From Geobacter sulfurreducens PCA (GTDB lineage: Bacteria; Desulfobacterota; Desulfuromonadia; Geobacterales; Geobacteraceae), in contig NC_002939.5 of the NCBI RefSeq assembly GCF_000007985.2, positions 3,150,001-3,182,000 on the forward strand: 32,000 bases of DNA, read 5' to 3'. The notes under the pieces were generated by a model. That model made no database searches. It saw nothing but the letters and a program-made list of their open reading frames with translations, and was not told the origin of the DNA. The position numbers and the translations under genes are program-made. Below are positions 10,103 to 28,309 of this stretch, one piece after another (within the stretch, counting starts at the first letter, position 1; every line of letters starts with the position of its first letter).

Positions 10103-10217
10103 CGTCTTTCCCTTTCCGGCAGAACGGAACTGAAACGGACATTCCCTCAAGTGTAGCAGAACATTGTCCGGATGCCGGGCCGGGGGAAATGTTCCCTCCG
10201 GCCGGTGGCGAAGTTTT

Positions 10218-16000: not shown

Positions 16001-16118
16001 CCCGGGCAGCCGCGACCAGAACCAGTGTCGCGGCCAGCGCCACGACACCGGCCTGCATCAGTTTCTCAACGAACGACTGCCGCCGGGGGCGAAGGTTGCC
16101 AAGATCACACCTGTTCAT
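13002..16118 (-). CDS. Multihaem c-type cytochrome (24 CxxCH + 3 CxxxxCH = 27 motifs)
   Basis: 1038 aa with an N-terminal hydrophobic signal (LMQAGVVALAATLVLVAAARA). The ATG at 16118 lies 10 nt after the stop of the upstream NHL gene and is preceded by GGGGGA. It ends in GSCFNVRCHFKPSKKWSTTK. Confidence 0.92.
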   Translation of the reverse strand: MNRCDLGNLRPRRQSFVEKLMQAGVVALAATLVLVAAARAIDPPHGAVSGFTCSTCHSSHLSLGSTGYNNICLSCHRPGVPLGGNRPLTMNDMANPFGTYTGARRGIIYQNSHAWTGSDTVLPAGALPPLSAGLTAGATTGALSCTRCHDPHNNTYPPYLRGANDQDQLCLDCHRVRNTSDHTRGTHPVNVNYGAAAAKDPAGFHPAPVNANPANPTAAMKLANGAVLCSTCHGVHYADSNSATFDNHSGHGTLTPSAGFLLRTDLRGATAASVNICTNCHRLPNHGAKGQNIQCADCHGGHVDLADGTVPNVFLVNRYINASSSFGAVRGRMVFLQYTAAARRIYKNPAGTGICQACHPVPTGGSYPAEHALATGTAADCAACHSHGNGTGAFSAAGASCTSCHGNPPRSSATGGPDGAAAGYAVTGVSEAATPHRRHAGGGSDYGYGCAQCHQGNSHNTGTFQDVFRNTAGLVAAMAGAAPAYNSASRTCSAIYCHSDGAPRNSALTPVLALKPVPAWTNGSGTITGCASCHAAQPATNAHAAHLAKGYGCALCHAATVSDNVTISDRSRHADGVKTVSFSATNPLAAGTSWNAATASCSASRCHSSGTSGSAGAPVTTPVWTNPATGTCGSCHATSPAIAATSSQTIATGLHTTHFSAAYGVKLGTSLTACQKCHDYTTAKHVNGSVDLLASACTGCHPQGASWTVATRFACTSCHAAVPSIINGVAAPYKARYAVSGHGQPAATYAASRACESCHNPDAPHISGVSGDATRLTLPNNNTLCASCHGDAAKVPTAAKRNLATHVTAKGGAATSLCSSCHDVHGTTNLAMIRTVIGGKAISFSNLSSGFVKTVSPYDGLCQVCHTATGHFRAGQALDGHPTKNCLSCHSHQGSYAFQPVGGGACDSCHGYPPVPAGFVTGAGNYAAGKPEDYAGGGGAHVVARHVPKTASPVEGWANCTPCHGNGSLSPATHTMVLPVTPSKVTIDPSDRYKFNHALPLGGQQYSGKLLDSGANATGSCFNVRCHFKPSKKWSTTK

Positions 16119-16128
16119 AGCGATCCCC

Positions 16129-18795
16129 CTACCAGGTTTGAACGCCGATGGACTTACGCAGAATCAGTATAGCATCCTGCAGGTCAATCTTCCCGTCGGG
16201 GCGAACTATGCCGTTGACCAGGGGGCCCACGTCGGCTGCGGCGTAGTCGTCGGCGGTCGGCGCCACGGCCCCTACCGCGATCCTGAGAACCCGCAGGACG
16301 TCTGCGATGGTTACCGTGCCATCGCTGTTCACATCACCTGTCGGCACGGGGGCAGACAGGCTCCGCGCCGTGACGTTGCCGGCAGCGTCGGTGGCGGTAA
16401 TCCGCAGGGTCGCCGGGTCATGGGGCGTACCGGCGAGATTGATGCTCCAGGCCCCATCGGAGGAGGCGAACAGGCCGAGAGTGCCGGACCGATCGCTTAC
16501 CATCACCGTGGCATCCCGGCCGGCGGTGCCGGCAAGGACGGCCGGCGGCGGCGAGGTCTGACCGGCGATGAGCAGCAACGGCGGAGTCCGGTCGACCACC
16601 AGGTTGCGGGTGGTGCTGGCAGAGGCACCGGTTGCGTCGGTAGCGGTCACGGTCACGGCATGGGCCCCTTCGAGCCCCGCCGGCACCGTAAGGCTGAAGG
16701 CGCTGCCGGTCAGGGTAACCGGCACGGCAGCCCCGTCCACGGTGGCAGAGAGGGTTACACCATCTTCCACGGCACCCGAGATGACGATGCTTTCGGCAAC
16801 GGTTGCCAGGTCTTCGGCCGGCGAGACGATTACCGCCTGGGGTGCGTCGGCATCGTAAAAGACCGTGCGTTTGAGGCGCGCCGTGGCTCCCGACGAGGCG
16901 GCAACGCCGATCTCGATGGTGTTCAGGCCAGGGGCGAGAGTCACCCGCCTGCTCCAGCCCGTATCGCTCACCGTGGCGACTACGCCGTTCACCGTCACGG
17001 TGACGCCGGCCGGGGCGGTGCCGGCAACCTCCACAACGGGCGTCCTCGTGCGGCTGCCATCGGAGGGCGCAACCACCGCCAGTTCGGGCGCAGCCGGATC
17101 AAAGGTAACGCTGCGGCCGTCGGTTACGCTGTTGCCGGCCTGGTCAGTGGCCGTGACCGTTAGCGTGGTGACGCCGTTGGCAAGGACCAGCGGCATACTG
17201 GCACTACCGTTCAGCAGCGTCACAGCCTTGCCGTTGACCGTAACGCCCTGGAGGTGAGGATCAACGGCGGCGATGGTCACGTTGTGGACCCTGACCCCGC
17301 TCCGGCTTCCATTGGCGAGGGTGGAGACCACCAACTGCGGCGCGCGGGTATCCACGGTCACCACCAGGCTTTCTGAGGCGCCACCCGTTGAGAGGGTTAT
17401 GAGGTTGGCGCCCTCGGCGAGGCCGCTCAGCACACTGCGCCAGGTGGAGGAAGTGGGATAGGTGACGGCGGCGGTTGCTCCCGTCGTCCCGTTGAGAATC
17501 GCAAGGGACACGCCGGCGGCGCGGGAACCGGTCAGGGTGACGCTGGTGGTGTTCAGCAGGGGCGGGACGGGGCCGATGGAGAAGAACGTATTGGTCACAG
17601 TCAGCACCACCGACCCGCCGACGGTGGCAATATTGCCAGCCGCGTCAACGGCCTGCACCGTAATACTGTTGAGACCGGGAGTAAGGGCGACAGTGGCGCT
17701 CCAGCCCGAGCCGCTCGTCACGGCCGGCTTGGCGACCCCGCCGTTTACCGACACCGTCACCGTGGCCCCGGCCTCTACGGACCCGCCCACGGCCAGCGAG
17801 GCGGTCAGGGTCGACACGGGTAGCGGATCAAGGGTGATCGCCGGCGGAGTCGTATCCACCGGCAGATAGCCTGCGCCGATGCCGTACAGCACCATGTCGC
17901 CGGCGCCGTTGGCCACCACGAGCCGACTGCCCGCGGCATCGAACAGGGCATCGGAGGGTGCGTTCAACAGGCCGGTGCCGGCGCCGTAGGAACCGATGAA
18001 CGCGAGGAACGCGCCGCTTCCTGCCGGGTCGATCACCTGGACGGTGCTCTGGAAGGAGTCGACCACGTACATTCTGAGCAGCGTGGGGGTTGCGCCGGCC
18101 GAATACTCGAAGGTGATGCCCTGGGGCAACGTGAGTTTGAGGGGGCCGGACCCGAAGGAACAAAGGGTCCGCTGAAAGATGCCGTTTGTGTCAAAAAACT
18201 GAATGCGTCCGTTCAGCGAGTCGACAACGGCCAACTGACCGGAAATCTTCTCGTAGGCAATGCCGGTCGGCATATTGAACTGGCCACTGCCAAAGCCGGC
18301 CGTTCCGAAACGGCTCAGGTAGTCACCCGTGGCAGTGAATACCTGGACGCAGTTACCCAGACTGTCTGTTACGTAAATCCTGCCTGCCGCATCCAGAACA
18401 ACACCGTTGGCCATCTTGAATTGTCCCGTGCCGGAACCCAGACGGCGCAACTCTTTCCCGGTCTGGTCCATGAGGGCCACAAAATCGCCCTGGCTCACCA
18501 CCAGGTTTCCCGTCGCGGTAAGTGCAACCCCCTGGGGCGCCTTGGCAGTGGGGATCAACCGGTCGAAACGGCCGGTGGAGGTGAAGCGCACGATACCGCC
18601 GCCCCGGGAATCGGTGACATACAGGTTGCCGGAAGAGTCTGTGGCGAGACGGACCGGAGACCGGAGACCGTCCGTCACTGACGGCAATGGTGTCACCTGC
18701 GGCGGGGTTGCCGCCAGGCCGCCCGCAATGCCGACCGCTTGGGCACCAACAATGACAACTACCGCCGCCAACAGCTTCCGGACCGTACCAACCAT
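16129..18795 (-). CDS. Secreted NHL-repeat beta-propeller / Ig-like domain array / dockerin-like C-terminal protein
   Basis: ORF track 16129..18798 starts at a GTG; an ATG follows at 18795, with GGGAGG 5-8 nt upstream. The signal peptide is MVGTVRKLLAAVVVIVGAQAVG. About six NHL-type blades follow (repeated P.GVA.D..G.LYV.DS.N..V..F). The middle holds repeated ~90-aa Ig-like units (..V.V.VNG..A....GW...V.L..G.N.I...A.D.AGN). The C-terminus is GDVNSDGTVTIADVLRVLR...RPDGKIDLQDAILILRK, which are dockerin/EF-hand-like duplicated loops. Confidence 0.9.
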   Translation of the reverse strand: MVGTVRKLLAAVVVIVGAQAVGIAGGLAATPPQVTPLPSVTDGLRSPVRLATDSSGNLYVTDSRGGGIVRFTSTGRFDRLIPTAKAPQGVALTATGNLVVSQGDFVALMDQTGKELRRLGSGTGQFKMANGVVLDAAGRIYVTDSLGNCVQVFTATGDYLSRFGTAGFGSGQFNMPTGIAYEKISGQLAVVDSLNGRIQFFDTNGIFQRTLCSFGSGPLKLTLPQGITFEYSAGATPTLLRMYVVDSFQSTVQVIDPAGSGAFLAFIGSYGAGTGLLNAPSDALFDAAGSRLVVANGAGDMVLYGIGAGYLPVDTTPPAITLDPLPVSTLTASLAVGGSVEAGATVTVSVNGGVAKPAVTSGSGWSATVALTPGLNSITVQAVDAAGNIATVGGSVVLTVTNTFFSIGPVPPLLNTTSVTLTGSRAAGVSLAILNGTTGATAAVTYPTSSTWRSVLSGLAEGANLITLSTGGASESLVVTVDTRAPQLVVSTLANGSRSGVRVHNVTIAAVDPHLQGVTVNGKAVTLLNGSASMPLVLANGVTTLTVTATDQAGNSVTDGRSVTFDPAAPELAVVAPSDGSRTRTPVVEVAGTAPAGVTVTVNGVVATVSDTGWSRRVTLAPGLNTIEIGVAASSGATARLKRTVFYDADAPQAVIVSPAEDLATVAESIVISGAVEDGVTLSATVDGAAVPVTLTGSAFSLTVPAGLEGAHAVTVTATDATGASASTTRNLVVDRTPPLLLIAGQTSPPPAVLAGTAGRDATVMVSDRSGTLGLFASSDGAWSINLAGTPHDPATLRITATDAAGNVTARSLSAPVPTGDVNSDGTVTIADVLRVLRIAVGAVAPTADDYAAADVGPLVNGIVRPDGKIDLQDAILILRKSIGVQTW

Positions 18796-18849
18796 CACCC
18801 GAGCCTCCCGGCGCCCCGCGTCTGCCGCTTCCCGCCGTCCAGCGGGCGC

Positions 18850-19389: not shown

Positions 19390-20451
19390 CTACCTGTGCT
19401 CGTCGCAGGCACTGGTGAGGGCGGTGCAGTTCCCCTCCCCGTAGGAGGTCGGCGACGATGCCTTCCTGAAGTTCGTCATGACCTGCGCCTTCTTGCCGGT
19501 GGAATCGATATAGGCATAGGGCGCGGGGTCGGAGTTGTAGCCGATGAACCGGCCGTGGTTCAGGCCGTGCGGACTCACCGAATGGCACGCGACACAGGCC
19601 ACATTGTTCTCGTGGTCGCTTTCGCTGTGAACGTTGTTGTACCAGCCGCTGGAGCCGCCACTTCCCTTGAGGGGGTGACACTTGGCGCAGAACAGGGTGG
19701 TCTGCCAGTTGCCGGTGTTGTTACGCACGTCTCCCAAGGTCCAGAGCTTGCCGTCGGAGCGCGCGGGCCAGGTGGTGCCGGTAATCAGCATGGACTTACC
19801 GGTCGAGCCGGGGGTGTGACAGTCGCTGCACTTCATCACCTGGGTGCCGACGGCGGTCCAGGGTGCCTTCATCTGGTTTGCCCGCAGAGCCCGCGGCGCG
19901 GCGGAGCCGGTCTGGCTGTTGAGGGGCACCTGGACCGGGTGGGCCGACGCGTTGGCCGGGTTGAACTCCCGGGCCTTGTCGGTAAAGGGCTTGCCCGACG
20001 GGCCGACGATGGCGCTCACGCCGTTGGTGGCGGAGAACGCATAGGTGGAGTGACACTTATAGCACAGCTGGTACTCCTTGGTCGCAGGCTGCACGGCCGT
20101 GTACCCGGTCGGCGAGGTCCACGCCGCCGTAGCATTCGGCTGGACCCCGTTGTACTGGCTGAAGTTGGCGACGTAGTCGCCGTGCTTGTCCAGGTGGGAC
20201 TGGGCGCCGTGGCAATTGGAGCAGGCATACTGCTGGCCCGCCACACCGGCGGTGATGGTGTCCATTACATCCTGGTTCGTACTGTTGTGACAGGTCTGGC
20301 AGACGGTGGCCGCAAAGCCGCCGTGTTGCGTGATCAGGTTGTTCTTGTGACAGAAGGAGCAGGTCCCCTGCCCCACCGCGGCCACATGCCCCGCCATGGC
20401 CGGAACGGCCATGGCGAGCAGTGCTGCGAATGTCATGACTATGCGTTTCAT
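19390..20451 (-). CDS. Heptahaem c-type cytochrome
   Basis: ORF track 19390..20490. The ATG at 20451 is preceded by GGAGGA at about 6 nt and gives the signal peptide MKRIVMTFAALLAMAVPAMA. Seven CxxCH sites: CSFCH, CQTCH, CSNCH, CYKCH, CSDCH, CAKCH, CVACH. Confidence 0.9.
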   Translation of the reverse strand: MKRIVMTFAALLAMAVPAMAGHVAAVGQGTCSFCHKNNLITQHGGFAATVCQTCHNSTNQDVMDTITAGVAGQQYACSNCHGAQSHLDKHGDYVANFSQYNGVQPNATAAWTSPTGYTAVQPATKEYQLCYKCHSTYAFSATNGVSAIVGPSGKPFTDKAREFNPANASAHPVQVPLNSQTGSAAPRALRANQMKAPWTAVGTQVMKCSDCHTPGSTGKSMLITGTTWPARSDGKLWTLGDVRNNTGNWQTTLFCAKCHPLKGSGGSSGWYNNVHSESDHENNVACVACHSVSPHGLNHGRFIGYNSDPAPYAYIDSTGKKAQVMTNFRKASSPTSYGEGNCTALTSACDEHR

Positions 20452-20504: not shown

Positions 20505-23159
20505 CTACTGCACCAGGAAGGCCCCCTCGGCAACATAGAGGCTGCTCGAGGTGGTGGTGACACGGAACTTCATCCAGCCGTAGCCGTTCATCCGCTGCGC
20601 GATGGAGGTGACGTCGATATCTTTCCAGCCGGCGCTGCTCGTGCTGTAGCTCACCGAGTAGTAGCTGTTCACCGATGTGCCGTTGGACTGGTACGGATAG
20701 ATGCGCAGCGTCCGCGACGAACTGATGGAGGAGACATACAGCCGCAGCACTACCTTGCTTGCGGTCAGGGCGTCGCGGTTCAGCTTCATGGCGATGACGT
20801 AGTTCTCGCCACTCTTGTACTGCAGCAGATACCGGTCTGCAAGGTTGCTGTCGCGGAACTTCGAGGTCAGGTCGTTGCTGTTGCTGTCAGAGGAGGTGAC
20901 GCTGCTCAGCCGCTGCAGGTACAGCACCTGGTCCGCAAACACCGAACTGCTGCCCGCCTGGCTCTGAACCGTCACCACCGCCGTGTCGCTGGCCGTGTCG
21001 CCGCTGTTGTCGGTCACGGTAAGGGTCACCGTGTAGGTGCCTGCCGTGGTGTAGGTTTTGGTGACGCTCACCCCGCTTCCCGTGGTGCCGTCGCCGAAGT
21101 TCCACACATACCCCACGATACTTCCGTCAGGATCGCTGGAGCCCGAACCGGAGAAGGTGATGGCCTGGCCGACGGTAACGGTCCGGTCAGCCCCCGCGTT
21201 GGCCGAAGGGCCCCGGTTGGCGCCGCCGTGGATCATGGTGTGGCAACTGCGGCAGTTCTGCTGGATTCCAGCCATGCCGTCGCTGATGGTCTTGACGTAC
21301 AGCTCATTGGTGCTCGTATGGCAGCCGTTGCAGTAGACCGGTGTGGCGGCCTTCTCATGGGCTGTCACCGCGTTGTCCGAATGGCACTGGCCGCAGTTGG
21401 GGGCGGGCAGTCCCACCATGTCGTGCTGCCCGGCGTGGTTGCCGAAGCCGCCGATGGCGCTGTGGCAGTCAGCACAATAGACGAGCGTGCCGCCCAGCCC
21501 CTTCTGCACCGCCGCCGTCACCGACGCGTTATCGCTGGCGTGGCAGGCCGCGCACTGAAAGCCCTTCACAGCGTGCAGCTCAACCAGGTTCGGAATATGA
21601 CAGGAGCTGCAGTCGCCGTACGGGACCAGCACCTTGCCGTCGTGGGCGCTCTGGTGGGTCACCTGGCCGTGGCAGTCCACGCAGGAGACCGCCTGGCCGC
21701 TCCGCCCCGCGGCAATGGCCTGCTGGACCGCCGTGCTGCTGCTGGAGTGGCAGGTGGCGCAGGTAGACGTGCGGGTCAGGTGCTCGTCGAGCACGCTCTT
21801 GGTGTGGCACTGGGCACAGGCCGGAGAGGCAAGCGCCTGATCGTGCTGGGCCACGTGGTTAACCGCCCCGTGGCAGCTGGCGCAGGAGACCGTGATCCCG
21901 GCGCGGCCGTCGCTTATCGTCTTCTGCACCGCGGCGTTGGTGCTGTTGTGGCAGGTGGCGCAGGTGGAAGAGCGGTTCGTGTGCTCGTACACCACGCCCT
22001 GGCCATGGCACGAGGCGCAATCGGCAGGGGTGGTCACCTTGTCGTGCTGCTGGACGTGGTTCACGTTCGCGTGGCAGTTGGAGCAGTAGACCGTGGTGCC
22101 CGCCTTGCCGGCGGCAATGGCCTGCTGGACCGCGGGAGCGGCGCTCGAGTGGCAGGTGGCGCAGGTTGAAGCCCGCGAAAGGTGCTCGTTCACCACCCCC
22201 AGGTTGTGGCACTGGGCACAGTCGGCATTGGCCATGGCCTTGTCGTGTTGCTGGATGTGGTTCACGGCGCCGTGACAGTTGGCGCAGGAAACCATGGTGC
22301 CGGTCCGGCCGAGGGTGATCGTCTGCTGCACCGTGGTGCTGGAACTGTTGTGGCAGGTGGCGCAGGTGGAGGTCCGGTTGGTGTGCTCCTGGACCGGCCC
22401 CTGATTGTGGCAGCCGGAGCAATCCGCCGGCGTGGAAACCTTGTCGTGCTGAAGCACGTGGTTCACCGTGCCGTGGCAGGTAACACAGTACACGGCGATG
22501 CCGGCCCGGCCGTCGGCGATGGCTTTCTGCACCGCGGGCTGGGTGCTGGCGTGACAGGTGGCGCAGGTGGAGGTCCGGTTCAGGTGTTCGAAGACGACCC
22601 CTTGGGCGTGGCACTGCACGCAGTCGGGAGAGGGGAATGCCCTGTCATGCTGGACAATGTGGTTCACCGCGCCGTGGCAGGTGATACAATTGACCATGAC
22701 GCCGGCCCGGCCGTCGGTGATGGCCTTCTGCACCGCGGGAGCCGTGCTGGAATGGCAGGTGGAGCAGGACGACGTTCTGCTCAGGTGCTCGGCCACGGGG
22801 GTCTGGGTGTGGCACTGGGCGCAATCGGCCGCGGTGGCAACCATGTTGTGGGCCGCAGCGTGGTCCACTTGGCCGTGGCAGACGATACAGTCGGTGATCA
22901 CCTCGATGGTGAATCCGCCCGATCCGTCGGGGATCGCCCGGTGGCACTGGAGGCAGGTGATGCCCTTGCTGCTGGCTACCGCATGGTGTTGCTGGGGAAT
23001 AGAGCCGTAGGTGCTCCCGGTGTGGCACGTCGTGCAGTCGGTTGCGGTAAGAGCCTGGGCATCCCGGACAATTCCCGGACCGGCCGTCAGCATGACGGCT
23101 ACCCCCCACAGGCACATCAGAATCTGCGGGAAAATGGTGATAATCCTCGACCTGTTCAA
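20505..23159 (-). CDS. 27-haem c-type cytochrome (nine tri-haem modules) with a PKD domain and a beta-rich C-terminal domain
   Basis: ORF track 20505..23225, where the longest form starts at a TTG. I prefer the TTG at 23159, which is preceded by AAGGAGGA at 9 nt and gives a signal-like N-terminus NRSRIITIFPQILMCLWGVAVMLTAGPGIVRDAQA. The alternative ATG at 23117 has no SD. There are 27 CxxCH motifs by hand count. The PKD signature is ITFSGSGSSDPDGSIVGYVWNFGDGTTG...YTVTLTVTDNSG. Confidence 0.9.
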   Translation of the reverse strand: MNRSRIITIFPQILMCLWGVAVMLTAGPGIVRDAQALTATDCTTCHTGSTYGSIPQQHHAVASSKGITCLQCHRAIPDGSGGFTIEVITDCIVCHGQVDHAAAHNMVATAADCAQCHTQTPVAEHLSRTSSCSTCHSSTAPAVQKAITDGRAGVMVNCITCHGAVNHIVQHDRAFPSPDCVQCHAQGVVFEHLNRTSTCATCHASTQPAVQKAIADGRAGIAVYCVTCHGTVNHVLQHDKVSTPADCSGCHNQGPVQEHTNRTSTCATCHNSSSTTVQQTITLGRTGTMVSCANCHGAVNHIQQHDKAMANADCAQCHNLGVVNEHLSRASTCATCHSSAAPAVQQAIAAGKAGTTVYCSNCHANVNHVQQHDKVTTPADCASCHGQGVVYEHTNRSSTCATCHNSTNAAVQKTISDGRAGITVSCASCHGAVNHVAQHDQALASPACAQCHTKSVLDEHLTRTSTCATCHSSSSTAVQQAIAAGRSGQAVSCVDCHGQVTHQSAHDGKVLVPYGDCSSCHIPNLVELHAVKGFQCAACHASDNASVTAAVQKGLGGTLVYCADCHSAIGGFGNHAGQHDMVGLPAPNCGQCHSDNAVTAHEKAATPVYCNGCHTSTNELYVKTISDGMAGIQQNCRSCHTMIHGGANRGPSANAGADRTVTVGQAITFSGSGSSDPDGSIVGYVWNFGDGTTGSGVSVTKTYTTAGTYTVTLTVTDNSGDTASDTAVVTVQSQAGSSSVFADQVLYLQRLSSVTSSDSNSNDLTSKFRDSNLADRYLLQYKSGENYVIAMKLNRDALTASKVVLRLYVSSISSSRTLRIYPYQSNGTSVNSYYSVSYSTSSAGWKDIDVTSIAQRMNGYGWMKFRVTTTSSSLYVAEGAFLVQ
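21222..23039 (-). repeat. Coding tandem array: nine ~201-bp (67-aa) tri-haem modules
   Basis: The module consensus is DC.QCH....V.EH..RTSTCATCHSS...AVQ.AI..GRAG..V.C..CHG.VNH..QHD. Modules 2-6 are exactly 67 aa; the first and last three are more diverged. The 201-bp periodicity also shows in shadow ORFs, for example those starting at 21892 and 22093. Confidence 0.85.
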
Positions 23160-23469
23160 AGCGCAAAGTCCTCCTTTCAATGATTCTTCACACTGGCGGG
23201 TTAACAATACAAATACACAATTCAATATACAGCGATGTCAAAAACACATCACAGGCGGAACAAATTAACGCATCTTACTTAAAAAAACAAGGGGAAAAAT
23301 ACGACAAATCAACACATTGCAGCGTTTACAGAGATACGGAAAGGCTCCTCAAAACACACATAAAATCAAACAAGTGCGGCATCTCAACAGTCATTTAACC
23401 GTCATGTCCGGCGAAATAGCCGGACAATGCAACGTAACTGCGCAACTGCCGGTACATGAGAGACCGTTA

Positions 23470-23485
23470 AGCAGTACCTGTGCCA
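23470..23485 (-). promoter_or_regulatory. Candidate sigma54 (-24/-12) promoter upstream of the 27-haem cytochrome gene
   Basis: Minus strand TGGCAC-AGGTA-CTGCT with correct GG/GC spacing. It would give a leader of roughly 300 nt, largely AT-rich. Confidence 0.4.
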
Positions 23486-23560
23486 AACTGCCCACAGAAT
23501 GACAGATGCCTTCAAAAATTCGACACACGCGAGTGTCCTCACGGGGTTATGGTTGCCGTG

Positions 23561-23610
23561 CGCAAAGAAAACACAACGGCCCGGTCATCTTCGCGATAAG
23601 ACCGGGCCGT
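23561..23610 (-). terminator. Rho-independent terminator downstream of the radical SAM gene
   Basis: Perfect 11-bp stem ACGGCCCGGTC (23576-23586) / GACCGGGCCGT (23600-23610) with a 13-nt loop. The minus strand continues UGUGUUUUCUUUGCG. Confidence 0.75.
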
Positions 23611-23646
23611 GAAAAGCCGTGTCCGGGGGAACAGTGGCGGGGACGA

Positions 23647-25158
23647 TCAGGGGATCGGCGCCACCGCGTGGGGATGGGCTGCGCCCGTGCGCTCGCCGAC
23701 CGCGCGCAGCAGCGCCTTTACCTCGGCCGGCATCTCCTTTCCCTCCTTGAGCATGGCCCGCATCTGGCCGGCCAGGTAGGAATGATTGATGAGGAGATCC
23801 AGTACCGAGAGCATGAATTCCTGCTTCCATGCCGATAGCTGGTGCAGATTCTGGAATTTGTGCATGAAAAACTGCTGGGACGCCTTGCCGAGTTGGCGCT
23901 CCAGCTCTTCCAGGGTCATGTGCTTCGGCTTGATGACCGGCTCCACCAGGTTGTACTTGCGGTAGTCCTTGGTGGCCACGTACTCCTCCAGTTGGGGATA
24001 GAGCTCGGCGTAGGGCCAGGGCGCTATGGCCAGGAAAAAGGCCATGTCAGGATTGTAGTGCTTGGCCAGCTCAATGGTCTGGGCAATGGATTCCGGCGTA
24101 TCGTCGGGCATGCCGAGCACGAAGGAGGTTTCCGAGACGATGTCGGCGTTGTTGATCAGGTCGATAGCCTGCTTGGACTGCTCCACCTGGGTGTCCTTCT
24201 TGAAAAGGTCCAGGGTCTCCTGGGTGCCGGCCTCCACCCCCACGTAGATATGCTCGACGCCCCCTTCCCGGTACCTGTCCATAATGTCCGCATCACGCAG
24301 GATGTCGTCCACCCTCGTTTCCATGAGGAGCTTGACCGGAACCTGCCGCTCGATCATCAGGTCCAGGATGCGGACCCATCGCTGCCGGTCAAAGGTGGGA
24401 ATCTCGTCCGAAAGCATGGCCACCTGGACGCCGTGCACGGTGTGGAGCATCTCAAGCTCCGCCACGAAGTTCTCGGCGGAGCGGGCCCGCCACGACTGTG
24501 ACCAGAAGAGCTGCTGGGAACAAAAGGAGCACTGCTGCTTGCACCCCCGGGACGAGGAGACGATGGCGAGCCGGGCGTCGTTCTTTGCCCGGTAGGTGTA
24601 AATGGGCCATTCCACCAGATCCCAGGCCATGGGGAGCCCGTCAAGGTCGTGAATGTACGGCGCCCGCGGCGTTACCACCACGCCGCCGTCCCGCCGGAAG
24701 GCGAGCCCTTCCACCTTGTACGGATCGTCTCCGGCATTGAGGCAGGTACAGAGCCGGGGCAGCGTTACTTCACCCTCGCCCCGGACGATGAAGTCGACGG
24801 CGTCGTGGTCATGGGCGAGGATCTCGTCGTAGCAGAAGGTGGCGTGCACATTGCCGAGCACGGTCACGATGCCGGGATCGATCTCCTTGGCGAAGCGCAG
24901 CAGCCTGATCGCGTCGACGATGGACGCGGTGAAGGCGGTGGTGGCCACCACGTCGGGGCGGAACGCCTCGATCCGCCTCCTGATGTCGGGCCACGTGTGC
25001 CACAGGGACATGGCATCATAGTAATCGACCTCATACCCCGCTGCCCTGAGAGACCCGGCGATGTAGACAAATCCGACATTAAGCCAGGTGCCGGCTGATT
25101 CCACGACCCCCGAGTGATAGGGGGGCGTGATGAGCGCCACACGCTTTATTTTTTTCAT
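23647..25158 (-). CDS. B12-binding (class B) radical SAM enzyme
   Basis: ORF track 23647..25161 starts at a TTG; the ATG at 25158 is preceded by GAGGAG at 6 nt. The N-terminal cobalamin-binding-like Rossmann part reads KRVALITPPY...GYEVDYYDA...PDVVATTAFTAS...FIVRGEGE. The radical SAM cluster motif is SSRGCKQQCSFC (CxxxCxxC). Confidence 0.9.
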   Translation of the reverse strand: MKKIKRVALITPPYHSGVVESAGTWLNVGFVYIAGSLRAAGYEVDYYDAMSLWHTWPDIRRRIEAFRPDVVATTAFTASIVDAIRLLRFAKEIDPGIVTVLGNVHATFCYDEILAHDHDAVDFIVRGEGEVTLPRLCTCLNAGDDPYKVEGLAFRRDGGVVVTPRAPYIHDLDGLPMAWDLVEWPIYTYRAKNDARLAIVSSSRGCKQQCSFCSQQLFWSQSWRARSAENFVAELEMLHTVHGVQVAMLSDEIPTFDRQRWVRILDLMIERQVPVKLLMETRVDDILRDADIMDRYREGGVEHIYVGVEAGTQETLDLFKKDTQVEQSKQAIDLINNADIVSETSFVLGMPDDTPESIAQTIELAKHYNPDMAFFLAIAPWPYAELYPQLEEYVATKDYRKYNLVEPVIKPKHMTLEELERQLGKASQQFFMHKFQNLHQLSAWKQEFMLSVLDLLINHSYLAGQMRAMLKEGKEMPAEVKALLRAVGERTGAAHPHAVAPIP

Positions 25159-25417
25159 CAATAGCTCCTCTATTCCATAACAGGCGGAAACCGCAACGGG
25201 TTGCCTAAAGCAAAAAATGGACCGCGTTTAATAAAAATTCAAAAATCCCACATTCCTCACCAGAACACAACGATTTTCTCCAAAAGGAACTGCAGTGCGG
25301 TTCCGGTGGAGTCACGGCAAAAAAACGTCATTTAGCCGGGTCGTCGAAAGACTGGGAGGCTGTTCGCGGATGAAGCCGCCGGATGCGTCACTGACCTGCC
25401 GTACACGCGGCCATGCC

Positions 25418-25771
25418 TCAATGGAATACCATGCCGTACACGCACAGATAACCGGCGCCGAACGCGGCAAACAGGACCAGGTGCTTGATGATGAGCATCC
25501 GGCGGCGGACCTTCTCCGCATCGGGTCCGTACCAGTTCTCCACATAGGTGAAGGTCCGGCCGGCGCCCGTGGCCATGATCACCACCATGGCAACGACGCT
25601 GGCCCAGAAGAAGATATGCTCCAGCCGGTTGAGAATCGCAACGATCTCCGCGGCCTGCCCGCCGTGCATCCGGTGGATCAGGACAATGGCGGCAATGGCG
25701 GCAAGCCAGATGCCGGCCGCGAAGTCATGGACAAAGCCGTTGAGAATCACTGCTGCATTTTTCACGTTCAT
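25418..25771 (-). CDS. Small His-rich integral membrane protein (about 4 TM), function unknown
   Basis: 117 aa with an ATG preceded by AAGAGG at 6 nt, 36 nt downstream of ccsA copy 2. Hydrophobic segments are AAGIWLAAIAAIVLI, IFFWASVVAMVVIMATGA and HLVLFAAFGAGYLCVYGMVF. His residues occur at FVHDF, IHRMHGG, LEHIF, IKHLV and at the C-terminal H. Confidence 0.7.
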   Translation of the reverse strand: MNVKNAAVILNGFVHDFAAGIWLAAIAAIVLIHRMHGGQAAEIVAILNRLEHIFFWASVVAMVVIMATGAGRTFTYVENWYGPDAEKVRRRMLIIKHLVLFAAFGAGYLCVYGMVFH

Positions 25772-25807: not shown

Positions 25808-26635
25808 CTACTTGAAATACTCCGAATGGATCGACGAACCGATGAGCGGCGTAAAGAGGAGCGAAATCACCGAGAGAACGAAGCAGATCAGGTAGAGGTA
25901 GGCCGCCCGCTCACCGTTCCAGCCGAAGAAACGGCGCAGGTGGAGGTAAATGCCGAAGGCGATCCATGTCATGAGGGACCAGGTCTCCACCGGATCCCAG
26001 CCCCAGAAACGCCCCCACGACTGGTATGCCCAGATGCTTCCGGCCACCATGGCGATACCCCAGAAGGTGAAGCTGAAGCCGGCAAAACGAAATGACAGGA
26101 TATCGAGGATCTCCAGTTCGGGGAGCCGCTGGAGCCAGGAGATCCCGGTCCGCTTCCGGAGAAGGTAGAAGAGGGAGAACGCCAGGGCCACCAGCAGGGT
26201 GAAGAGCGATATCTTGTAGAAGATCACGTGCAGGACGAGCCAGACGCTCCTCAGCGTGGGGGGGAGCATCTTGGCCTGGGGCTCGATGAACAGGCCCACG
26301 GCGATCATGAGGAAGGTGACCGGGAAAACCAGGATGCTCGCCGCCTTGATGCGGGGGAAAAAGCGTGAGGATGCCATGAACAGGGCCAGCACGGCCCAGG
26401 CGTGGGAGGAGAGGACCTCGAACCGGCCGATGTAGGGGCCGTGGCCGACGATCTTCCACCACCAGAGGATGCCGATCCCGTGCACCAGGAGCCCCCCGAG
26501 CACCAGGGCCTCGCTGACGGCAACGGCGCGCTCCTTGCGGAACATGAGGCCCGATACGTTGAAGATGGTGGCGATGACGTAGACAACCACCGCTACCCAG
26601 TGAATTATGGTGATGTGTGCAAAGGATGAATCCAT
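25808..26635 (-). CDS. ccsA: Cytochrome c biogenesis protein CcsA/ResC, copy 2
   Basis: 275 aa, collinear with 5692..6525 and more than half identical by eye. It has WGRFWGWDPVETW, GHGPY and YLHLRRFF. The ATG is preceded by AAGGAG. Confidence 0.9.
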   Translation of the reverse strand: MDSSFAHITIIHWVAVVVYVIATIFNVSGLMFRKERAVAVSEALVLGGLLVHGIGILWWWKIVGHGPYIGRFEVLSSHAWAVLALFMASSRFFPRIKAASILVFPVTFLMIAVGLFIEPQAKMLPPTLRSVWLVLHVIFYKISLFTLLVALAFSLFYLLRKRTGISWLQRLPELEILDILSFRFAGFSFTFWGIAMVAGSIWAYQSWGRFWGWDPVETWSLMTWIAFGIYLHLRRFFGWNGERAAYLYLICFVLSVISLLFTPLIGSSIHSEYFK

Positions 26636-26682
26636 GAGTACTCCTTACCCCTGTGTGAACGTGTGGCCGCGCCGTACGCGGC

Positions 26683-28026
26683 TCATCCCCGATGCCCCCC
26701 GCCCGGTACCCGGTCCCCGCCGGCTGCCTCGTCCGCCGGCAGGCACTCGCGGCAGATGCGCTCGAACTCCTCCCGGTAGAGCTCCGCGAACCGGGGGGCA
26801 CGCCAGGCGAGCCGGCATCCCTCCCCCTCCTTCACGGCCAGGAGCTCGCGGGGCGGGGACAGGTAACTCATCCCCCCGCCGAGGGCAATGACCAGAAAGG
26901 CGAAGAATATTCCTTCCATGCCCGTGGTATCGATAAAAATGATGCCGCCCCACCACTCCGACTTTACGAGAGTGACGGGATGGCCGCCAAGGGTCCCGGA
27001 CGCGCCGGCGGTGAGGGAGAGTTCCTCCACCACCTTCCCCGCCTTCACCAGTTGCAGCAGGAGCAGGGGGTTGTCACCCACGGGCGCCCGCCGGTCACTG
27101 TCGGGATAGTATTTGGCCCTGATCGTCGACGAGGTCCAGGGGACCGTAAAGTCCTTGAACGGGGCGTCGTCGCCGGTGAAGCGGCTGTCGACCATGAAGA
27201 TATCGCCCTGCCAGGCCCCGTTCGCATCCTGAAATCCCACGTAGAAGGCCCTGCCGAACGACTTGCCCTGGAAGACCCTGATCCCGCTGTGCCGGATCGT
27301 CTTGTTGACATGCATGGAGTAGGGGCTGTTCCGGCCGTCCGGGCCGATGAACGTGAAATCGGTCGTGAGCTGCTTGAGATTGCCGTTGGGCCAGAACTCG
27401 GGGACCACACGGTCGAGACGCACCGCCTCGGGAAGCGCGAATGTCCCCGCCAGCAGCCCCATATCCTGCCGTGTCCACGGATCCCCCACTCCGTGGACCT
27501 CCCCTTCCAGGAGATCGACCGACCCCCGCTTTTCATAGAGGAGGATGACAAGCGATGCAGCCACTGCCGCGACAATGCCCAGATGGAGCAGGACATTGCC
27601 CCAGTAGCCCCAGGGATTCTTTACGAGGCGGATCGAATCGCCATCGGAGCGGACCCGGAGATAGCCCAGCCTGCCGGCAGCGGCGGCAACCGTTTCCGGA
27701 GCGCAGGCAAGGACCAGGCTTTTGCCGCCGACCCCCCCTTCCCGGGTCAGCCGGAGCGCGCGCGTGAACTGCTCCCAGGTGGAGAAGAGCAGCGAAACCA
27801 TGAACAGCGCCAGGAGGACCGCAAACCAGGGCGACGTGTACACGTGGTCCAGTGCCAGCGTGCGCGAAAGGGTTGCGAGAAAGGGGTGGTCAAGCGCCCA
27901 CCGGTCCATGCCCGCCGGAGAGAGCAGGAACCGCTGGGGGAAGAGATAGCCGACAACCACCGCTCCCAGCACCAGGATGATCAGGGTCAGAACCGTTGAG
28001 CGGGCAAGAAAGAAACGTTTGATCAT
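26683..28026 (-). CDS. resB: Cytochrome c biogenesis protein ResB/CcsB, copy 2
   Basis: ORF track 26683..28185. The conserved ResB N-terminus MIKRFFLARSTVLTLIILVLGAVVVGYLFPQ aligns with copy 1 (MDIRRFFLSRTTVITLIAL...), so the start is at the ATG at 28026, or possibly 28041. The 53 Arg-rich codons upstream look non-coding. NPWGYWGNVLLHLGIVAAV is conserved. Confidence 0.85.
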   Translation of the reverse strand: MIKRFFLARSTVLTLIILVLGAVVVGYLFPQRFLLSPAGMDRWALDHPFLATLSRTLALDHVYTSPWFAVLLALFMVSLLFSTWEQFTRALRLTREGGVGGKSLVLACAPETVAAAAGRLGYLRVRSDGDSIRLVKNPWGYWGNVLLHLGIVAAVAASLVILLYEKRGSVDLLEGEVHGVGDPWTRQDMGLLAGTFALPEAVRLDRVVPEFWPNGNLKQLTTDFTFIGPDGRNSPYSMHVNKTIRHSGIRVFQGKSFGRAFYVGFQDANGAWQGDIFMVDSRFTGDDAPFKDFTVPWTSSTIRAKYYPDSDRRAPVGDNPLLLLQLVKAGKVVEELSLTAGASGTLGGHPVTLVKSEWWGGIIFIDTTGMEGIFFAFLVIALGGGMSYLSPPRELLAVKEGEGCRLAWRAPRFAELYREEFERICRECLPADEAAGGDRVPGGGHRG

Positions 28027-28117
28027 ATCCTCAACCTGCATCGGGCGGCACGGGCCGCCAACGGACCACGCACGGAAGAATCCGGCGCGGAGGCACAGTA
28101 CCCTCCGCCAGGAGCTC

Positions 28118-28309
28118 CTACCCCGCGCCCTCCCGCTTCGCCTTCTCCAGCAGGGCCGCGACCGATGCCCCCTCCTGACCGGCATCGATGATCATGTCGG
28201 CCACCAGGGCGGCACAGGTGCACATGGCCTCGCCGGTACCGAGCATCCTGTCGGATATCCGCTCCCCGGACCCGTCAGCGGCCCGCATTCGTTCGAGTAA
28301 TCTTATCAT
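28118..28309 (-). CDS. Hypothetical small protein (63 codons; uncertain)
   Basis: It fills the gap between the luxE-like stop and the resB start and overlaps the luxE-like 3' end by 35 nt. The distal two thirds have GC-rich third positions. It contains EAMCTCAALVADMIIDAGQEGASVAALLEK. The SD is weak and the start is uncertain (internal ATGs at 28288 and 28246). Confidence 0.3.
   Translation of the reverse strand: MIRLLERMRAADGSGERISDRMLGTGEAMCTCAALVADMIIDAGQEGASVAALLEKAKREGAG

What the first reader, a model, noticed from the sequence alone, without database searches (positions are those of the whole stretch)
21222..23039. The 27-haem cytochrome is a nine-fold array of 67-aa tri-haem modules, each with three spare histidines
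All 27 CxxCH motifs fall into nine consecutive modules of consensus DC.QCH....V.EH..RTSTCATCHSS...AVQ.AI..GRAG..V.C..CHG.VNH..QHD. Modules 2-8 each carry exactly three additional conserved His (EH, NH, QH) and no conserved Met. That is the stoichiometry expected for three bis-His haems per 67 residues, about 22 residues per haem. Such extreme density and regularity suggests a linear haem wire of roughly nine repeating units within one polypeptide. The module does not resemble the c7-type triheme domains of the known Geobacter dodecahaem polymers as I remember them.
Basis: partly seen in the sequence, partly recalled or inferred. Interest (0 to 1): 0.7.

Follow-up and report, generated by a model that had tools for sequence, protein, structure and literature searches.

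The report
Modular 27-haem cytochrome wire of Geobacter
The gene encodes the already catalogued but uncharacterised 27-haem cytochrome of Geobacter sulfurreducens (almost certainly GSU2887): a chain of nine three-haem units, all apparently histidine-ligated, ending in a sticky tail domain, and most likely a fixed-length electron wire outside the cell.

Summary
The ORF at 20505..23225 (-) has its true start at 23159 (884 aa). It holds 27 CxxCH motifs and exactly 27 other histidines, spaced 22/19/26 residues, which gives a 67-aa period. No methionine is conserved.

Six core modules (m2-m7) are 51-70% identical. Modules 1, 8 and 9 are divergent caps. The protein is 100% identical to a G. sulfurreducens protein and 2 residues from the strain PCA copy. 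The literature already calls GSU2887 'the 27-haem cytochrome', with function unknown.

New points:
- The module is not a c7 domain. hhalign against a PpcA-family profile gives 2-8% probability, and the single Pfam c7 stretches are faint.
- Natural deletions in 27 orthologues indicate that the His after the third CxxCH binds the first haem of its own module. By elimination, the 'QH' His serves the next module, so neighbouring modules would be interlocked.
- The N-terminal cap is homologous to the OmcZ N-terminus.
- The C-terminus is a PKD domain plus a CBM-like beta-sandwich.
- Orthologues keep the caps but carry 2-10 pattern-matching modules (14-39 CxxCH). About 1,860 representative proteins carry the module, some with 49-76 motifs.

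The linear-wire function is inferred, not shown.

The parts
20505..23159 (-). Gene for the 27-haem c-type cytochrome (884 aa plus stop); almost certainly GSU2887 of G. sulfurreducens
   Evidence: The ORF is listed from 23225. GGAGG lies 9 nt before the TTG at 23159. The 884-aa database protein P0001 is 100% identical. It is found on CP010430.1. The PCA copy AAR36279.1 differs by 2 aa.
23052..23159 (-). Sec signal peptide (ORF aa 23-58), with predicted signal-peptidase I cut after AQA, 5 residues before the first CxxCH
   Evidence: Read from the sequence: positive n-region NRSR, hydrophobic core, then AQA|LTATDC. The A-x-A|L-(T/V)-E-x-x-C context is conserved in orthologues. Many of them have no Cys in the signal peptide, so the 'lipoprotein' name is doubtful.
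22827..23039 (-). N-terminal cap module m1 (aa 63-133): haems 1-3 and four spare His (HH doublet, H122, H126); homologous to the OmcZ N-terminus
   Evidence: Module table. phmmer against OmcZ 7LQ5/8D9M gives E 1.2e-10 with shared QQHHA, PDGSGGFT and (D/N)CxxCHxQ.
21615..22826 (-). Six core tri-haem modules m2-m7 (aa 134-537; five of 67 aa and one of 69 aa): haems 4-21, pattern DCxxCH-x7-EH-x6-CxxCH-x21-CxxCH-x4-NH-x3-QHD
   Evidence: 51-70% identity. TRF 201-bp period over 21715..22881. AlphaFold2 of three modules gives pLDDT 88.1.
21399..21614 (-). Divergent module m8 (aa 538-609): haems 22-24, same ligand pattern (LH, NH, QH), with insertions
   Evidence: It is positionally conserved in all orthologues mapped, at 56-82% identity.
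21219..21398 (-). C-terminal cap module m9 (aa 610-669): haems 25-27 and two spare His (H623, H666)
   Evidence: Its first CxxCH and the trailing His H666 occur together in only 2 of 27 orthologues and are both absent in the other 25.
20967..21218 (-). PKD domain (aa 670-753)
   Evidence: Pfam PKD_4 at 93.2 bits, E 1e-26. Collagenase PKD domains in the PDB. Foldseek TM 0.93, rmsd about 1 A to the ColG PKD domain.
20508..20966 (-). C-terminal beta-sandwich domain (aa 754-906), with no Pfam or NCBIfam match; CBM-like
   Evidence: AlphaFold2 gives pLDDT 92.5 and is all-beta. The Foldseek top hit is 2C26, the PKD-CBM44 of a C. thermocellum endoglucanase, at E 2.8e-12. Surface glycan-binding proteins and TGF-beta prodomain arms also match. 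The domain also ends unrelated giant cytochromes P0039 and P0040.
19390..20451 (-). Downstream 7-CxxCH cytochrome (353 aa as called), 54 nt after the stop; probably co-transcribed
   Evidence: 7 CxxCH. Gene call in L001.

Best explanation
This is the Sec-exported, uncharacterised 27-haem c-type cytochrome of Geobacter sulfurreducens, almost certainly GSU2887.

Haem region. About 611 residues form one covalent chain of nine tri-haem modules: an OmcZ-like N-cap, six near-identical 67-69-aa core modules, and two divergent C-terminal modules. Every haem is most likely low-spin and bis-His ligated.

Ligand wiring (inferred).
- The His 3-4 residues after the third CxxCH ('NH') closes back onto the first haem of its own module.
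- The module's 'EH', together with the 'QH' of the preceding module, serves haems 2 and 3.
- Adjacent modules are therefore stitched together by a ligand, not joined as independent beads.
- This is not the cytochrome c7 topology.

Expected function (inferred). Such a chain should act as a fixed-length electron conduit or capacitor about 20 nm long. Electrons would hop from haem to haem.

Anchor and location (inferred). The PKD plus CBM-like beta-sandwich tail most likely anchors one end to a cell-surface or matrix glycan, or to another surface. This would place the wire outside the outer membrane, within the low-potential extracellular electron-transfer network.

Length variation. Length evolves by gain and loss of internal 201-bp modules, while the caps and the tail stay fixed.

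Status of each step. Shown here: motif and His stoichiometry, repeat structure, domain architecture, homologies, and copy-number variation. Inferred: ligation chemistry, wiring, extended shape, localisation and physiological role.
For: Haem and His stoichiometry.
- 27 CxxCH and 27 other His; no conserved Met.
- The module profile has only Cys and His as invariant columns, with E25, G51 and G54 nearly invariant.
- In 40 relatives spare His is never fewer than CxxCH, and in several the two counts are equal: 23/23, 22/22, 19/19, 28/28, 36/36, 29/29.
- Giant relatives keep total His at about twice the motif count.

Wiring.
- Module 1 has one extra spare His and module 9 has one fewer.
- The trailing His and the first CxxCH of the last module are present together in 2 of 2 orthologues and absent together in 25 of 25. 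The two that have both are only 47% identical to each other, and a 71%-identical orthologue lacks both.
- A duplicated N-cap unit in P0007/P0019-type proteins lacks both features again.
- In the AlphaFold2 model of three modules (pLDDT 88.1), the six 2-residue strands can all find partners inside the fragment only if the linker after QHD pairs with the strand before the third CxxCH of the next module.

Not c7.
- hhalign gives 7.8% and 2.4% probability against a PpcA-family profile.
- Against PpcA alone it gives 28.7% over 28 columns, with the His out of register.

Homologies.
- OmcZ N-terminus, E 1.2e-10.
- MtrA (6R2Q chain A), E 1.1e-9 with the three-module profile.

Tail.
- PKD domain.
- PKD plus beta-sandwich matching PKD-CBM44, E 2.8e-12.

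Genomic context.
- The gene sits in a cluster of large multihaem cytochromes, flanked by two ResB/ResC haem-attachment pairs.

Copy number.
- P0003 keeps the seven pattern-matching modules (m2-m8) in one-to-one correspondence.
- Other species lack or add internal modules, while m7, m8 and the caps persist.

Literature.
- GSU2887 is called a 27-heme cytochrome, predicted extracellular by PSORTb, and associated with the low-potential pathway (bioRxiv 10.1101/2022.05.22.492868).
- It is upregulated in electrode biofilms (PMC10599522).
- Cytochrome length scales linearly with haem number, with about 27 haems for about 200 A (PMC7096707).
Against: - No spectroscopy, structure with haems, or localisation data exist for this protein in what I could read.
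- I had no model coordinates. His-to-haem pairings and the extended shape rest on bookkeeping, co-variation and DSSP strings.
- The pTM of the three-module model is only 0.61.
- Pfam and the databases label the repeats c7/c3-like.
- One source annotates a lipoprotein, which would tether the N-terminus to a membrane rather than free it.
- About 27 haems also matches the width of the periplasm, so a periplasm-spanning role is not excluded.
- The equation of this gene with locus tag GSU2887 rests on the PCA accession, the name, the haem count and synteny. It is not a direct locus-tag look-up.
Confidence: 0.7

Rival explanations
1. It is a member of the known c7-type domain polymers of Geobacter (GSU1996, GSU0592, GSU2210). 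These are periplasmic 'nanowires of haems' that store electrons. Each module would be a cytochrome c7 fold with c7 ligand wiring.
For: - Pfam Cytochrome_C7 matches with 9 stretches and E 4.5e-36; Cytochrom_c3_2 and Cytochrom_CIII also match.
- The layout is the same: tandem tri-haem units of about 70 aa.
- Shifting the register by one helix gives the same ligand order as c7 (H, H, CxxCH, H, CxxCH, CxxCH).
- The literature describes a nine-domain, 27-haem c7-type polymer in this genome, GSU2210 (PMC10138318).
Against: - hhalign against a PpcA-family profile gives 7.8% and 2.4% probability.
- Each Pfam c7 stretch is 'faint' on its own.
- The best Pfam stretch (aa 279-341) is in a register that aligns CxxCH spacing, not the His ligands (read).
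- GSU1996 fragments do not appear at E<=0.01 with phmmer. With the module profile, 3OUQ scores only E 0.029.
- There is no conserved Met for the His-Met haem that defines c7-type polymer domains.
- The N-cap has no His before its first CxxCH.
- Orthologues that lack the first haem of the last module lose the trailing His, not the upstream NH. This contradicts c7 wiring.
- A PKD plus CBM-like tail is present.
Confidence: 0.1
2. It is a periplasm-spanning conduit or capacitor. The protein would stay in the periplasm, possibly lipid-anchored, and bridge the inner-membrane quinol oxidases to outer-membrane conduits.
For: - About 27 haems is the number estimated to span about 200 A of periplasm (PMC7096707).
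- One annotation calls it a lipoprotein.
- No porin gene is evident next to it.
- GSU1996-type polymers are described as periplasmic.
Against: - PKD plus CBM-like tails are typical of secreted or surface proteins: collagenases, cellulosomal enzymes, surface glycan-binding proteins.
- The N-cap is homologous to extracellular OmcZ.
- PSORTb predicts an extracellular location, according to the preprint.
- The Cys in the signal peptide is not conserved in orthologues, and 'ILMC' is a poor lipobox.
- Orthologue length varies from 14 to 39 CxxCH. That fits poorly with a fixed periplasmic width.
Confidence: 0.15
3. It is a catalytic multihaem reductase, with a substrate-binding haem hidden in the array, rather than a pure wire.
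For: Many multihaem families (NrfA, HAO, OTR, MccA) give weak motif-level hits in the PDB profile search.
Against: - The exact 27:27 His balance leaves no haem without a sixth ligand.
- There is no CxxCK and no other variant motif.
- No catalytic-family model passes its cut-off.
- The matches to those enzymes cover single CxxCH segments only.
Confidence: 0.03

Closest known systems
GSU1996 / GSU0592 / GSU2210: c7-type domain polymers of G. sulfurreducens ('nanowires of haems'; structure of GSU1996 by Pokkuluri et al. 2011, cited from my own knowledge and from PMC10138318)
   Same: One polypeptide built from tandem tri-haem units of about 70 aa at very high haem density. The proposed role is an intramolecular haem wire or electron store. 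GSU2210 is also reported with 27 haems.
   Different: - The module here shows no profile-level homology to c7.
- All haems appear bis-His; there is no His-Met haem in each unit.
- The inferred wiring crosses module boundaries.
- There is an OmcZ-like N-cap and a PKD plus beta-sandwich tail.
- I could not retrieve the GSU2210 sequence for a direct comparison.
OmcZ (GSU2076), the octahaem nanowire subunit (PDB 7LQ5, 8D9M)
   Same: - The first ~130 mature residues align at E 1.2e-10, with shared QQHHA, PDGSGGFT and (D/N)CxxCHxQ.
- Orthologues carry a stretched CX4CH or CX8CH motif where OmcZ has CX14CH.
- All OmcZ haems are bis-His (PMC9473688).
- Both belong to the same organism and are extracellular or predicted extracellular.
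   Different: OmcZ has 8 haems, polymerises after OzpA cleavage, and has no 67-aa repeat array. The similarity ends after the N-cap.
MtrA / DmsE-family decahaem cytochromes (PDB 6R2Q chain A; NCBIfam TIGR03508)
   Same: - It is the best sequence match in the PDB for the three-module profile: E 1.1e-9 over 150 positions, including an HHD-x4-CxxCH segment.
- TIGR03508 matches at E 1.2e-24 in 6 stretches.
- MtrA is a peptide-minimal bis-His haem wire.
   Different: The score of 87 bits is far below the family cut-off of 192. MtrA has ten haems, built from penta-haem units and sheathed by a porin. The positions of the distal His differ.
Giant modular multihaem cytochromes predicted in Desulfuromonadia and other phyla (PMC11492766)
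   Same: These are long single-chain 'wires' of repeated modules, predicted by AlphaFold2 and often extracellular. About 1,860 representative proteins carry this same module, some with 49-76 CxxCH.
   Different: That survey does not name this module in the text I read. The 27-haem protein it illustrates is a 130.7-kDa G. metallireducens protein, not this ~88-kDa one.

Membership tests
c7-type domain polymers (GSU1996 family) | Each domain is homologous to tri-haem cytochrome c7 (PpcA family) | tested here: not met
   hhalign of the module profile A1 against the PpcA-family profile A4 gives 7.8% probability over 9 columns. The three-module profile A2 gives 2.4%. Against PpcA alone it gives 28.7%. 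3OUQ scores E 0.029.
c7-type domain polymers (GSU1996 family) | The last haem of each domain is His-Met ligated (from the literature, my own knowledge) | tested here: not met
   No Met is conserved at any module position. Spare His equals haem number.
c7-type domain polymers (GSU1996 family) | c7 ligand wiring: two His upstream of the first CxxCH ligate haems I and III of the same domain | tested here: not met
   This is comparative inference only. The N-cap has no His before the first CxxCH. Loss of the first haem of the last module is coupled to loss of the downstream trailing His, not the upstream NH, in 27 of 27 orthologues. No coordinates were available for a direct test.
c7-type domain polymers (GSU1996 family) | Tandem tri-haem units in a single polypeptide | tested here: met
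   Nine units with a 67-aa period.
Pfam Cytochrome_C7 (PF14522) / class III multihaem clan | Whole-protein score above the gathering threshold | tested here: met
   122.9 bits against a 24.8 cut-off, in 9 stretches. No single stretch reaches E 0.001; all are 'faint'. Membership is therefore of the broad clan, not of c7 proper.
OmcZ family | Sequence homology across the octahaem core | tested here: inconclusive
   Only the N-terminal part aligns: query 3-134 to OmcZ 21-164, E 1.2e-10. The rest of OmcZ is not matched.
OmcZ family | Proteolytic maturation by an OzpA-type protease and polymerisation into filaments | not testable with these tools
   No subtilisin-like gene was seen among the neighbours examined. 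Polymerisation needs experiment.
MtrA/DmsE decahaem family (TIGR03508) | Score above the NCBIfam cut-off | tested here: not met
   87.2 bits against a 192.2 cut-off.
PKD domain | Pfam match and PKD fold | tested here: met
   PF18911 at 93.2 bits against a cut-off of 27. Foldseek TM 0.93-0.94 and rmsd 1.0-1.3 A to ColG PKD domains.
Carbohydrate-binding-module-like beta-sandwich | Beta-sandwich fold similar to a characterised CBM; ligand-binding residues | tested here: inconclusive
   The fold match to PKD-CBM44 (2C26) has E 2.8e-12 but a two-domain TM of only 0.36. TGF-beta prodomain arms also match. No Pfam or NCBIfam model matches. Binding residues and ligand were not tested.
Bacterial lipoprotein | Lipobox [LVI][ASTVI][GAS]C at the end of the signal peptide, conserved in orthologues | tested here: not met
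   'ILMC' is non-canonical. Orthologues P0003 and P0004 have no Cys in the signal peptide, whereas AxA|L(T/V)E..C is conserved. Judged by eye; no predictor was run.

The most novel reading that the evidence does not exclude
The 67-aa unit is a distinct, widespread tri-haem building block that is not c7. In it, one histidine of each module ligates a haem of the next module. This makes a rigid, ligand-stitched haem rod.

The length of the rod is tuned in evolution by adding or deleting 201-bp modules between fixed caps. Close relatives carry 14-39 CxxCH, and other phyla carry 49-76.

In Geobacter the OmcZ-like N-cap and the PKD/CBM-like tail would make it a 'molecular ruler'. One end would be fixed in the polysaccharide matrix, and the other end might dock onto OmcZ-type nanowires or minerals.
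Probability: 0.3. Interest if true: 0.65.

Novelty: new variant of a known kind. Interest (0 to 1): 0.4.

Why it matters
Geobacter is the model organism for extracellular electron transfer. Most of its very large cytochromes have no known role.

This protein packs 27 haems into about 63 kDa of peptide, on a strictly repeating and apparently all-bis-His scaffold. A one- to three-module fragment would therefore be a tractable system for studying electron hopping along a defined haem chain, and a candidate part for engineered protein wires of chosen length.

The cross-module ligand wiring, if confirmed, would explain how such arrays fold into stiff rods rather than beads on a string. The same module recurs in about 1,860 representative proteins from several phyla, so one structure would explain a large uncharacterised family.

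The PKD/CBM-like tail gives a testable idea of how a wire is fixed in the biofilm matrix. The practical gain is moderate, because the protein and its haem count were already catalogued.

Tried and rejected
- Foldseek of the three-module model against the PDB gave no meaningful hit: two rows at E 9.4. This is not diagnostic. The OmcZ authors report the same for OmcZ, OmcS and OmcE.
- I searched the protein database with PpcA hoping to recover the c7-type polymers (GSU1996, GSU2210) for a direct comparison. The 120 best hits listed are all 86-102 aa, so no polymer was recovered. I used them to build a genuine c7 profile instead.
- A supplement look-up for the locus tags in PMC12977616 found nothing. 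PMC9248073 lists GSU2210 without a haem count. The OmcZ paper PMC9999484 is not held.
- The Pfam DnaJ_CXXCXGXG match (73.5 bits) and the RNF4 and ribosomal S27e hits in the PDB are artefacts of repeated CxxC spacing. I rejected them.
- The long antisense and overlapping ORFs on both strands of the repeat region (for example 21228..22169 +, 22182..23183 +, 21859..22614 -) are by-products of a GC-rich repetitive gene.
- The 'lipoprotein' annotation is judged doubtful.
- TRF also reports a 402-bp super-period, and m3~m5 (70%) and m4~m6 (65%) hint at a two-module duplication. The DNA identities (66-73% throughout) do not separate this clearly, so I did not pursue it.
- I considered that the 27-haem cluster illustrated in PMC11492766 might be this family. 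Its representative is a 130.7-kDa G. metallireducens protein, so it is not the same protein.


Full report
**What is in the sequence**

The finding lies in a single ORF on the minus strand, listed as 20505..23225 (906 aa from a TTG). Translation shows 27 CxxCH motifs, no variant motifs, and 54 histidines in total. So exactly 27 His lie outside the motifs.

The distances between successive motifs are 27,22, then six times (22,19,26), then 24,19,26 and 27,21,26. This is a 67-residue period.

They span nt 21219..23039. Modules 2-7 are 51-70% identical to each other. Modules 1, 8 and 9 are 29-45% identical to the rest.

Tandem Repeats Finder sees the 201-bp period directly in the DNA: 5.8 copies, 69% matches, score 765. 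Modules 2-6 are 66-73% identical at the DNA level.

Modules 2-8 carry three spare His each. Module 1 carries four and module 9 two. The seven Met of the haem domain are not at conserved positions.

A GGAGG box lies 9 nt before an in-frame TTG at 23159. That start gives the 884-aa product found in databases.

**Identity**

The 884-aa product is 100% identical to a G. sulfurreducens protein (AJY69153.1) on chromosome CP010430.1. It differs by two residues from AAR36279.1 of strain PCA, named 'Lipoprotein cytochrome c'.

The neighbourhood on the minus strand, running from low to high window coordinates (for all except where noted):
- asd and an isopropylmalate dehydrogenase;
- a ResC/ResB pair;
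- three large multihaem cytochromes with extra CxxxxCH motifs;
- an NHL/Ig-like protein;
- a 7-haem cytochrome;
- the 27-haem gene;
- a B12-radical-SAM gene;
- a second ResC/ResB pair.

[quoted passage not shown] It also speaks of the 'GSU2887 lipoprotein cytochrome c' upregulated in electrode biofilms (PMC10599522). The neighbouring GSU2884 (OmcA), OmcH and OmcG are mentioned as long multihaem proteins (PMC11492766).

I conclude that this is GSU2887. The equation rests on accession, name, haem count and synteny, not on a direct locus-tag look-up. A different gene, GSU2210, is cited as the 27-haem polymer of c7-type domains (PMC10138318). I could not retrieve its sequence.

**Are the spare histidines ligands?**

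Four lines of evidence say yes.

1. In a profile of 32 diverse modules the only invariant columns are the six Cys and the eight His. The eight are three motif His, three spare His, and the two His of the preceding module included at the start. One Glu and two Gly are nearly invariant.
2. In 40 relatives the number of spare His is never below the number of CxxCH. It is exactly equal in several: 23/23, 22/22, 19/19, 28/28, 36/36, 29/29. Giant relatives with 49-76 motifs keep total His at about twice the motif count.
3. Spare His disappear together with haem motifs in natural variants (next section).
4. No Met is conserved.

This is the signature of bis-His haems throughout. It remains an inference until spectroscopy is done.

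**Wiring and the true repeating unit**

Module 1 has one spare His too many and module 9 one too few. This is what is expected if one His of each module serves its neighbour.

Twenty-seven orthologues share the C-terminal cap. Only two (this protein and P0008) have the first CxxCH of the last module. Exactly those two have a His four residues after the last CxxCH. The other 25 lack both. The two carriers are only 47% identical, and a 71%-identical orthologue lacks both, so shared ancestry alone does not explain the coupling.

A duplicated N-cap unit in the P0007/P0019 type again lacks both the first motif and that His.

The simplest reading is as follows. The His after the third CxxCH ('NH') ligates the first haem of its own module. 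'EH' and the 'QH' of the preceding module serve haems 2 and 3.

An AlphaFold2 model of three modules is confident: mean pLDDT 88.1, pTM 0.61. Each module shows the same five short helices. The model has six two-residue strands, at 12-13, 62-63, 80-81, 129-130, 147-148 and 196-197. All six can find a partner inside the fragment only if the linker after QHD pairs with the strand before the third CxxCH of the following module. That again ties the end of one module to the body of the next. I had no coordinates, so His-haem distances could not be measured.

**Is it a c7 array?**

Pfam places nine stretches in Cytochrome_C7, with a whole-protein E of 4.5e-36. No single stretch is significant on its own; all are marked 'faint'. 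The best stretch (aa 279-341) is in a register that fits CxxCH spacing rather than ligand positions.

I built a genuine c7 profile from 14 PpcA-family proteins. The PpcA sequence itself was verified against 1OS6. hhalign of the module profile against the c7 profile gives 7.8% probability. The three-module profile gives 2.4%. Only one CxxCH is aligned in each case. Against PpcA alone the value is 28.7% over 28 columns, with the His out of register.

GSU1996 fragments do not appear in a phmmer search of the PDB. With the module profile, 3OUQ reaches only E 0.029.

The c7-type polymer domains are defined by a His-Met haem (my own knowledge of Pokkuluri et al. 2004 and 2011). There is no conserved Met here. 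The c7 wiring is also contradicted by the natural deletions.

So the array works like a c7-type polymer, as tandem tri-haem units forming a wire. It is not a member of that family.

**Closest relatives with structures**

The three-module profile finds MtrA best (6R2Q chain A, E 1.1e-9, 150 positions). The DmsE-family model scores 87 bits against a cut-off of 192.

The N-terminal cap is clearly homologous to the N-terminus of the nanowire subunit OmcZ (7LQ5/8D9M, E 1.2e-10). Shared segments are QQHHA, PDGSGGFT and (D/N)CxxCHxQ. Where OmcZ has its stretched CX14CH motif, some orthologues of this protein have CX4CH or CX8CH.

Foldseek found nothing for the module model. This is uninformative for such folds (PMC9473688).

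**The rest of the protein**

Residues 670-753 are a PKD domain. Residues 754-906 match no Pfam or NCBIfam model.

AlphaFold2 gives a confident all-beta model of the last 244 residues (pLDDT 92.5). Its best Foldseek hit is the PKD-CBM44 pair of a Clostridium thermocellum endoglucanase (2C26, E 2.8e-12). Surface glycan-binding proteins and TGF-beta prodomain arms follow. The same terminal domain closes unrelated giant cytochromes P0039 and P0040.

The signal peptide ends in AQA|LTATDC. The 'ILMC' box is a poor lipobox, and orthologues lack the Cys. Plain secretion is therefore more likely than lipidation.

**Family and evolution**

Close relatives from Geobacter and other Desulfuromonadales keep the N-cap, m7, m8, the last module, the PKD domain and the tail. 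They carry 2-10 pattern-matching modules and 14-39 CxxCH.

In the 71%-identical P0003 the seven pattern-matching modules (m2-m8) correspond one to one. Other species lack m2-m5 equivalents or have extra m3/m5-like copies. Length therefore changes by gain and loss of internal modules.

A profile search of 1.84 billion representative proteins finds 1,862 proteins at E<=1e-3 and 113 at E<=1e-30. Some have up to about 30 full-length module matches, and the giants I fetched carry 49-76 CxxCH. Source names include Nitrospirota, Desulfobulbaceae, Coriobacteriia, Firmicutes and an archaeon.

**Most likely function**

The haem domain has 22.6 residues and 2.34 kDa of peptide per haem. The holo-protein is about 105 kDa. 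A published linear relation puts about 27 haems at about 200 A (PMC7096707).

I therefore read it as a secreted haem rod of roughly 20 nm. The PKD/CBM-like tail would anchor it to a surface or matrix component. It would act as a conduit or capacitor in low-potential extracellular electron transfer. The adjacent ResB/ResC pairs would attach the haems.

A periplasm-spanning role is the main rival. Catalysis is unlikely, because no haem lacks a sixth ligand.

**Verdict**

The description is accurate and the bis-His stoichiometry is robust. The protein and its haem count were already known, and single-chain wires built from tri-haem units are a known kind.

What appears to be new:
- the module is a distinct, widespread, non-c7 unit;
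- the inferred cross-module ligation;
- the OmcZ-like cap;
- the CBM-like tail.

Interest is moderate.

Noticed in passing
window 5692-7832 (-) and 25808-28185 (-): Two separate ResC(CcsA)-like and ResB-like gene pairs (System II cytochrome c haem attachment) flank the cytochrome cluster. This suggests dedicated maturation paralogues for these very large cytochromes.
   Followed up: partly
window 23647-25161 (-), plus small ORF 25418-25771 (-): A B12-binding radical SAM protein lies immediately upstream of the 27-haem gene. It is BchE-like: TIGR02026 at 408 bits, below the 481 cut-off. A 117-aa hydrophobic ORF lies between it and the ResC-like gene. Its role next to cytochromes is unexplained.
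   Followed up: no
window 7970-10150, 10218-12926, 13002-16118 (all -): Three large multihaem cytochromes carry 14+4, 19+5 and 24+3 CxxCH+CxxxxCH motifs and match the Pfam 'Geobacter CxxxxCH...CXXCH' motif. They are probably OmcG, OmcH and GSU2884/OmcA. Their plus-strand GC skew is strongly positive.
   Followed up: partly
window 16129-18798 (-): An 889-aa secreted protein without haem motifs sits in the middle of the cytochrome cluster. It has NHL/beta-propeller repeats, four glucodextranase-B-like domains and bacterial Ig-like domains.
   Followed up: no
window 19390-20451 (-): A 7-CxxCH cytochrome starts 54 nt after the stop of the 27-haem gene and is probably co-transcribed. It is a possible redox partner.
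   Followed up: no
window 22827-23051 (-); orthologues P0003, P0004, P0009: The N-terminal cap is homologous to the OmcZ N-terminus. In some orthologues the second haem motif is stretched to CX4CH or CX8CH, at the position where OmcZ has CX14CH.
   Followed up: partly
window 20508-20966 (-); proteins P0039, P0040: The unannotated C-terminal beta-sandwich domain also terminates unrelated giant cytochromes (1320 and 1493 aa) that lack the PKD domain. This suggests a mobile anchoring module for extracellular cytochromes.
   Followed up: partly
window 28275-29498 (-): A LuxE-like acyl-protein synthetase gene lies beyond the second ResB-like gene. No obvious link to the cytochromes.
   Followed up: no
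window 21058-23268, both strands: Several long ORFs (up to 333 aa) overlap the cytochrome gene in other frames and on the plus strand. They are by-products of the GC-rich repeat, not genes.
   Followed up: yes
window 23226-23646: A 420-nt AT-richer intergenic region lies upstream of the 27-haem gene (GC 0.54 in the 23-24 kb bin against 0.66 in the gene). The gene therefore probably has its own promoter. Not analysed.
   Followed up: no
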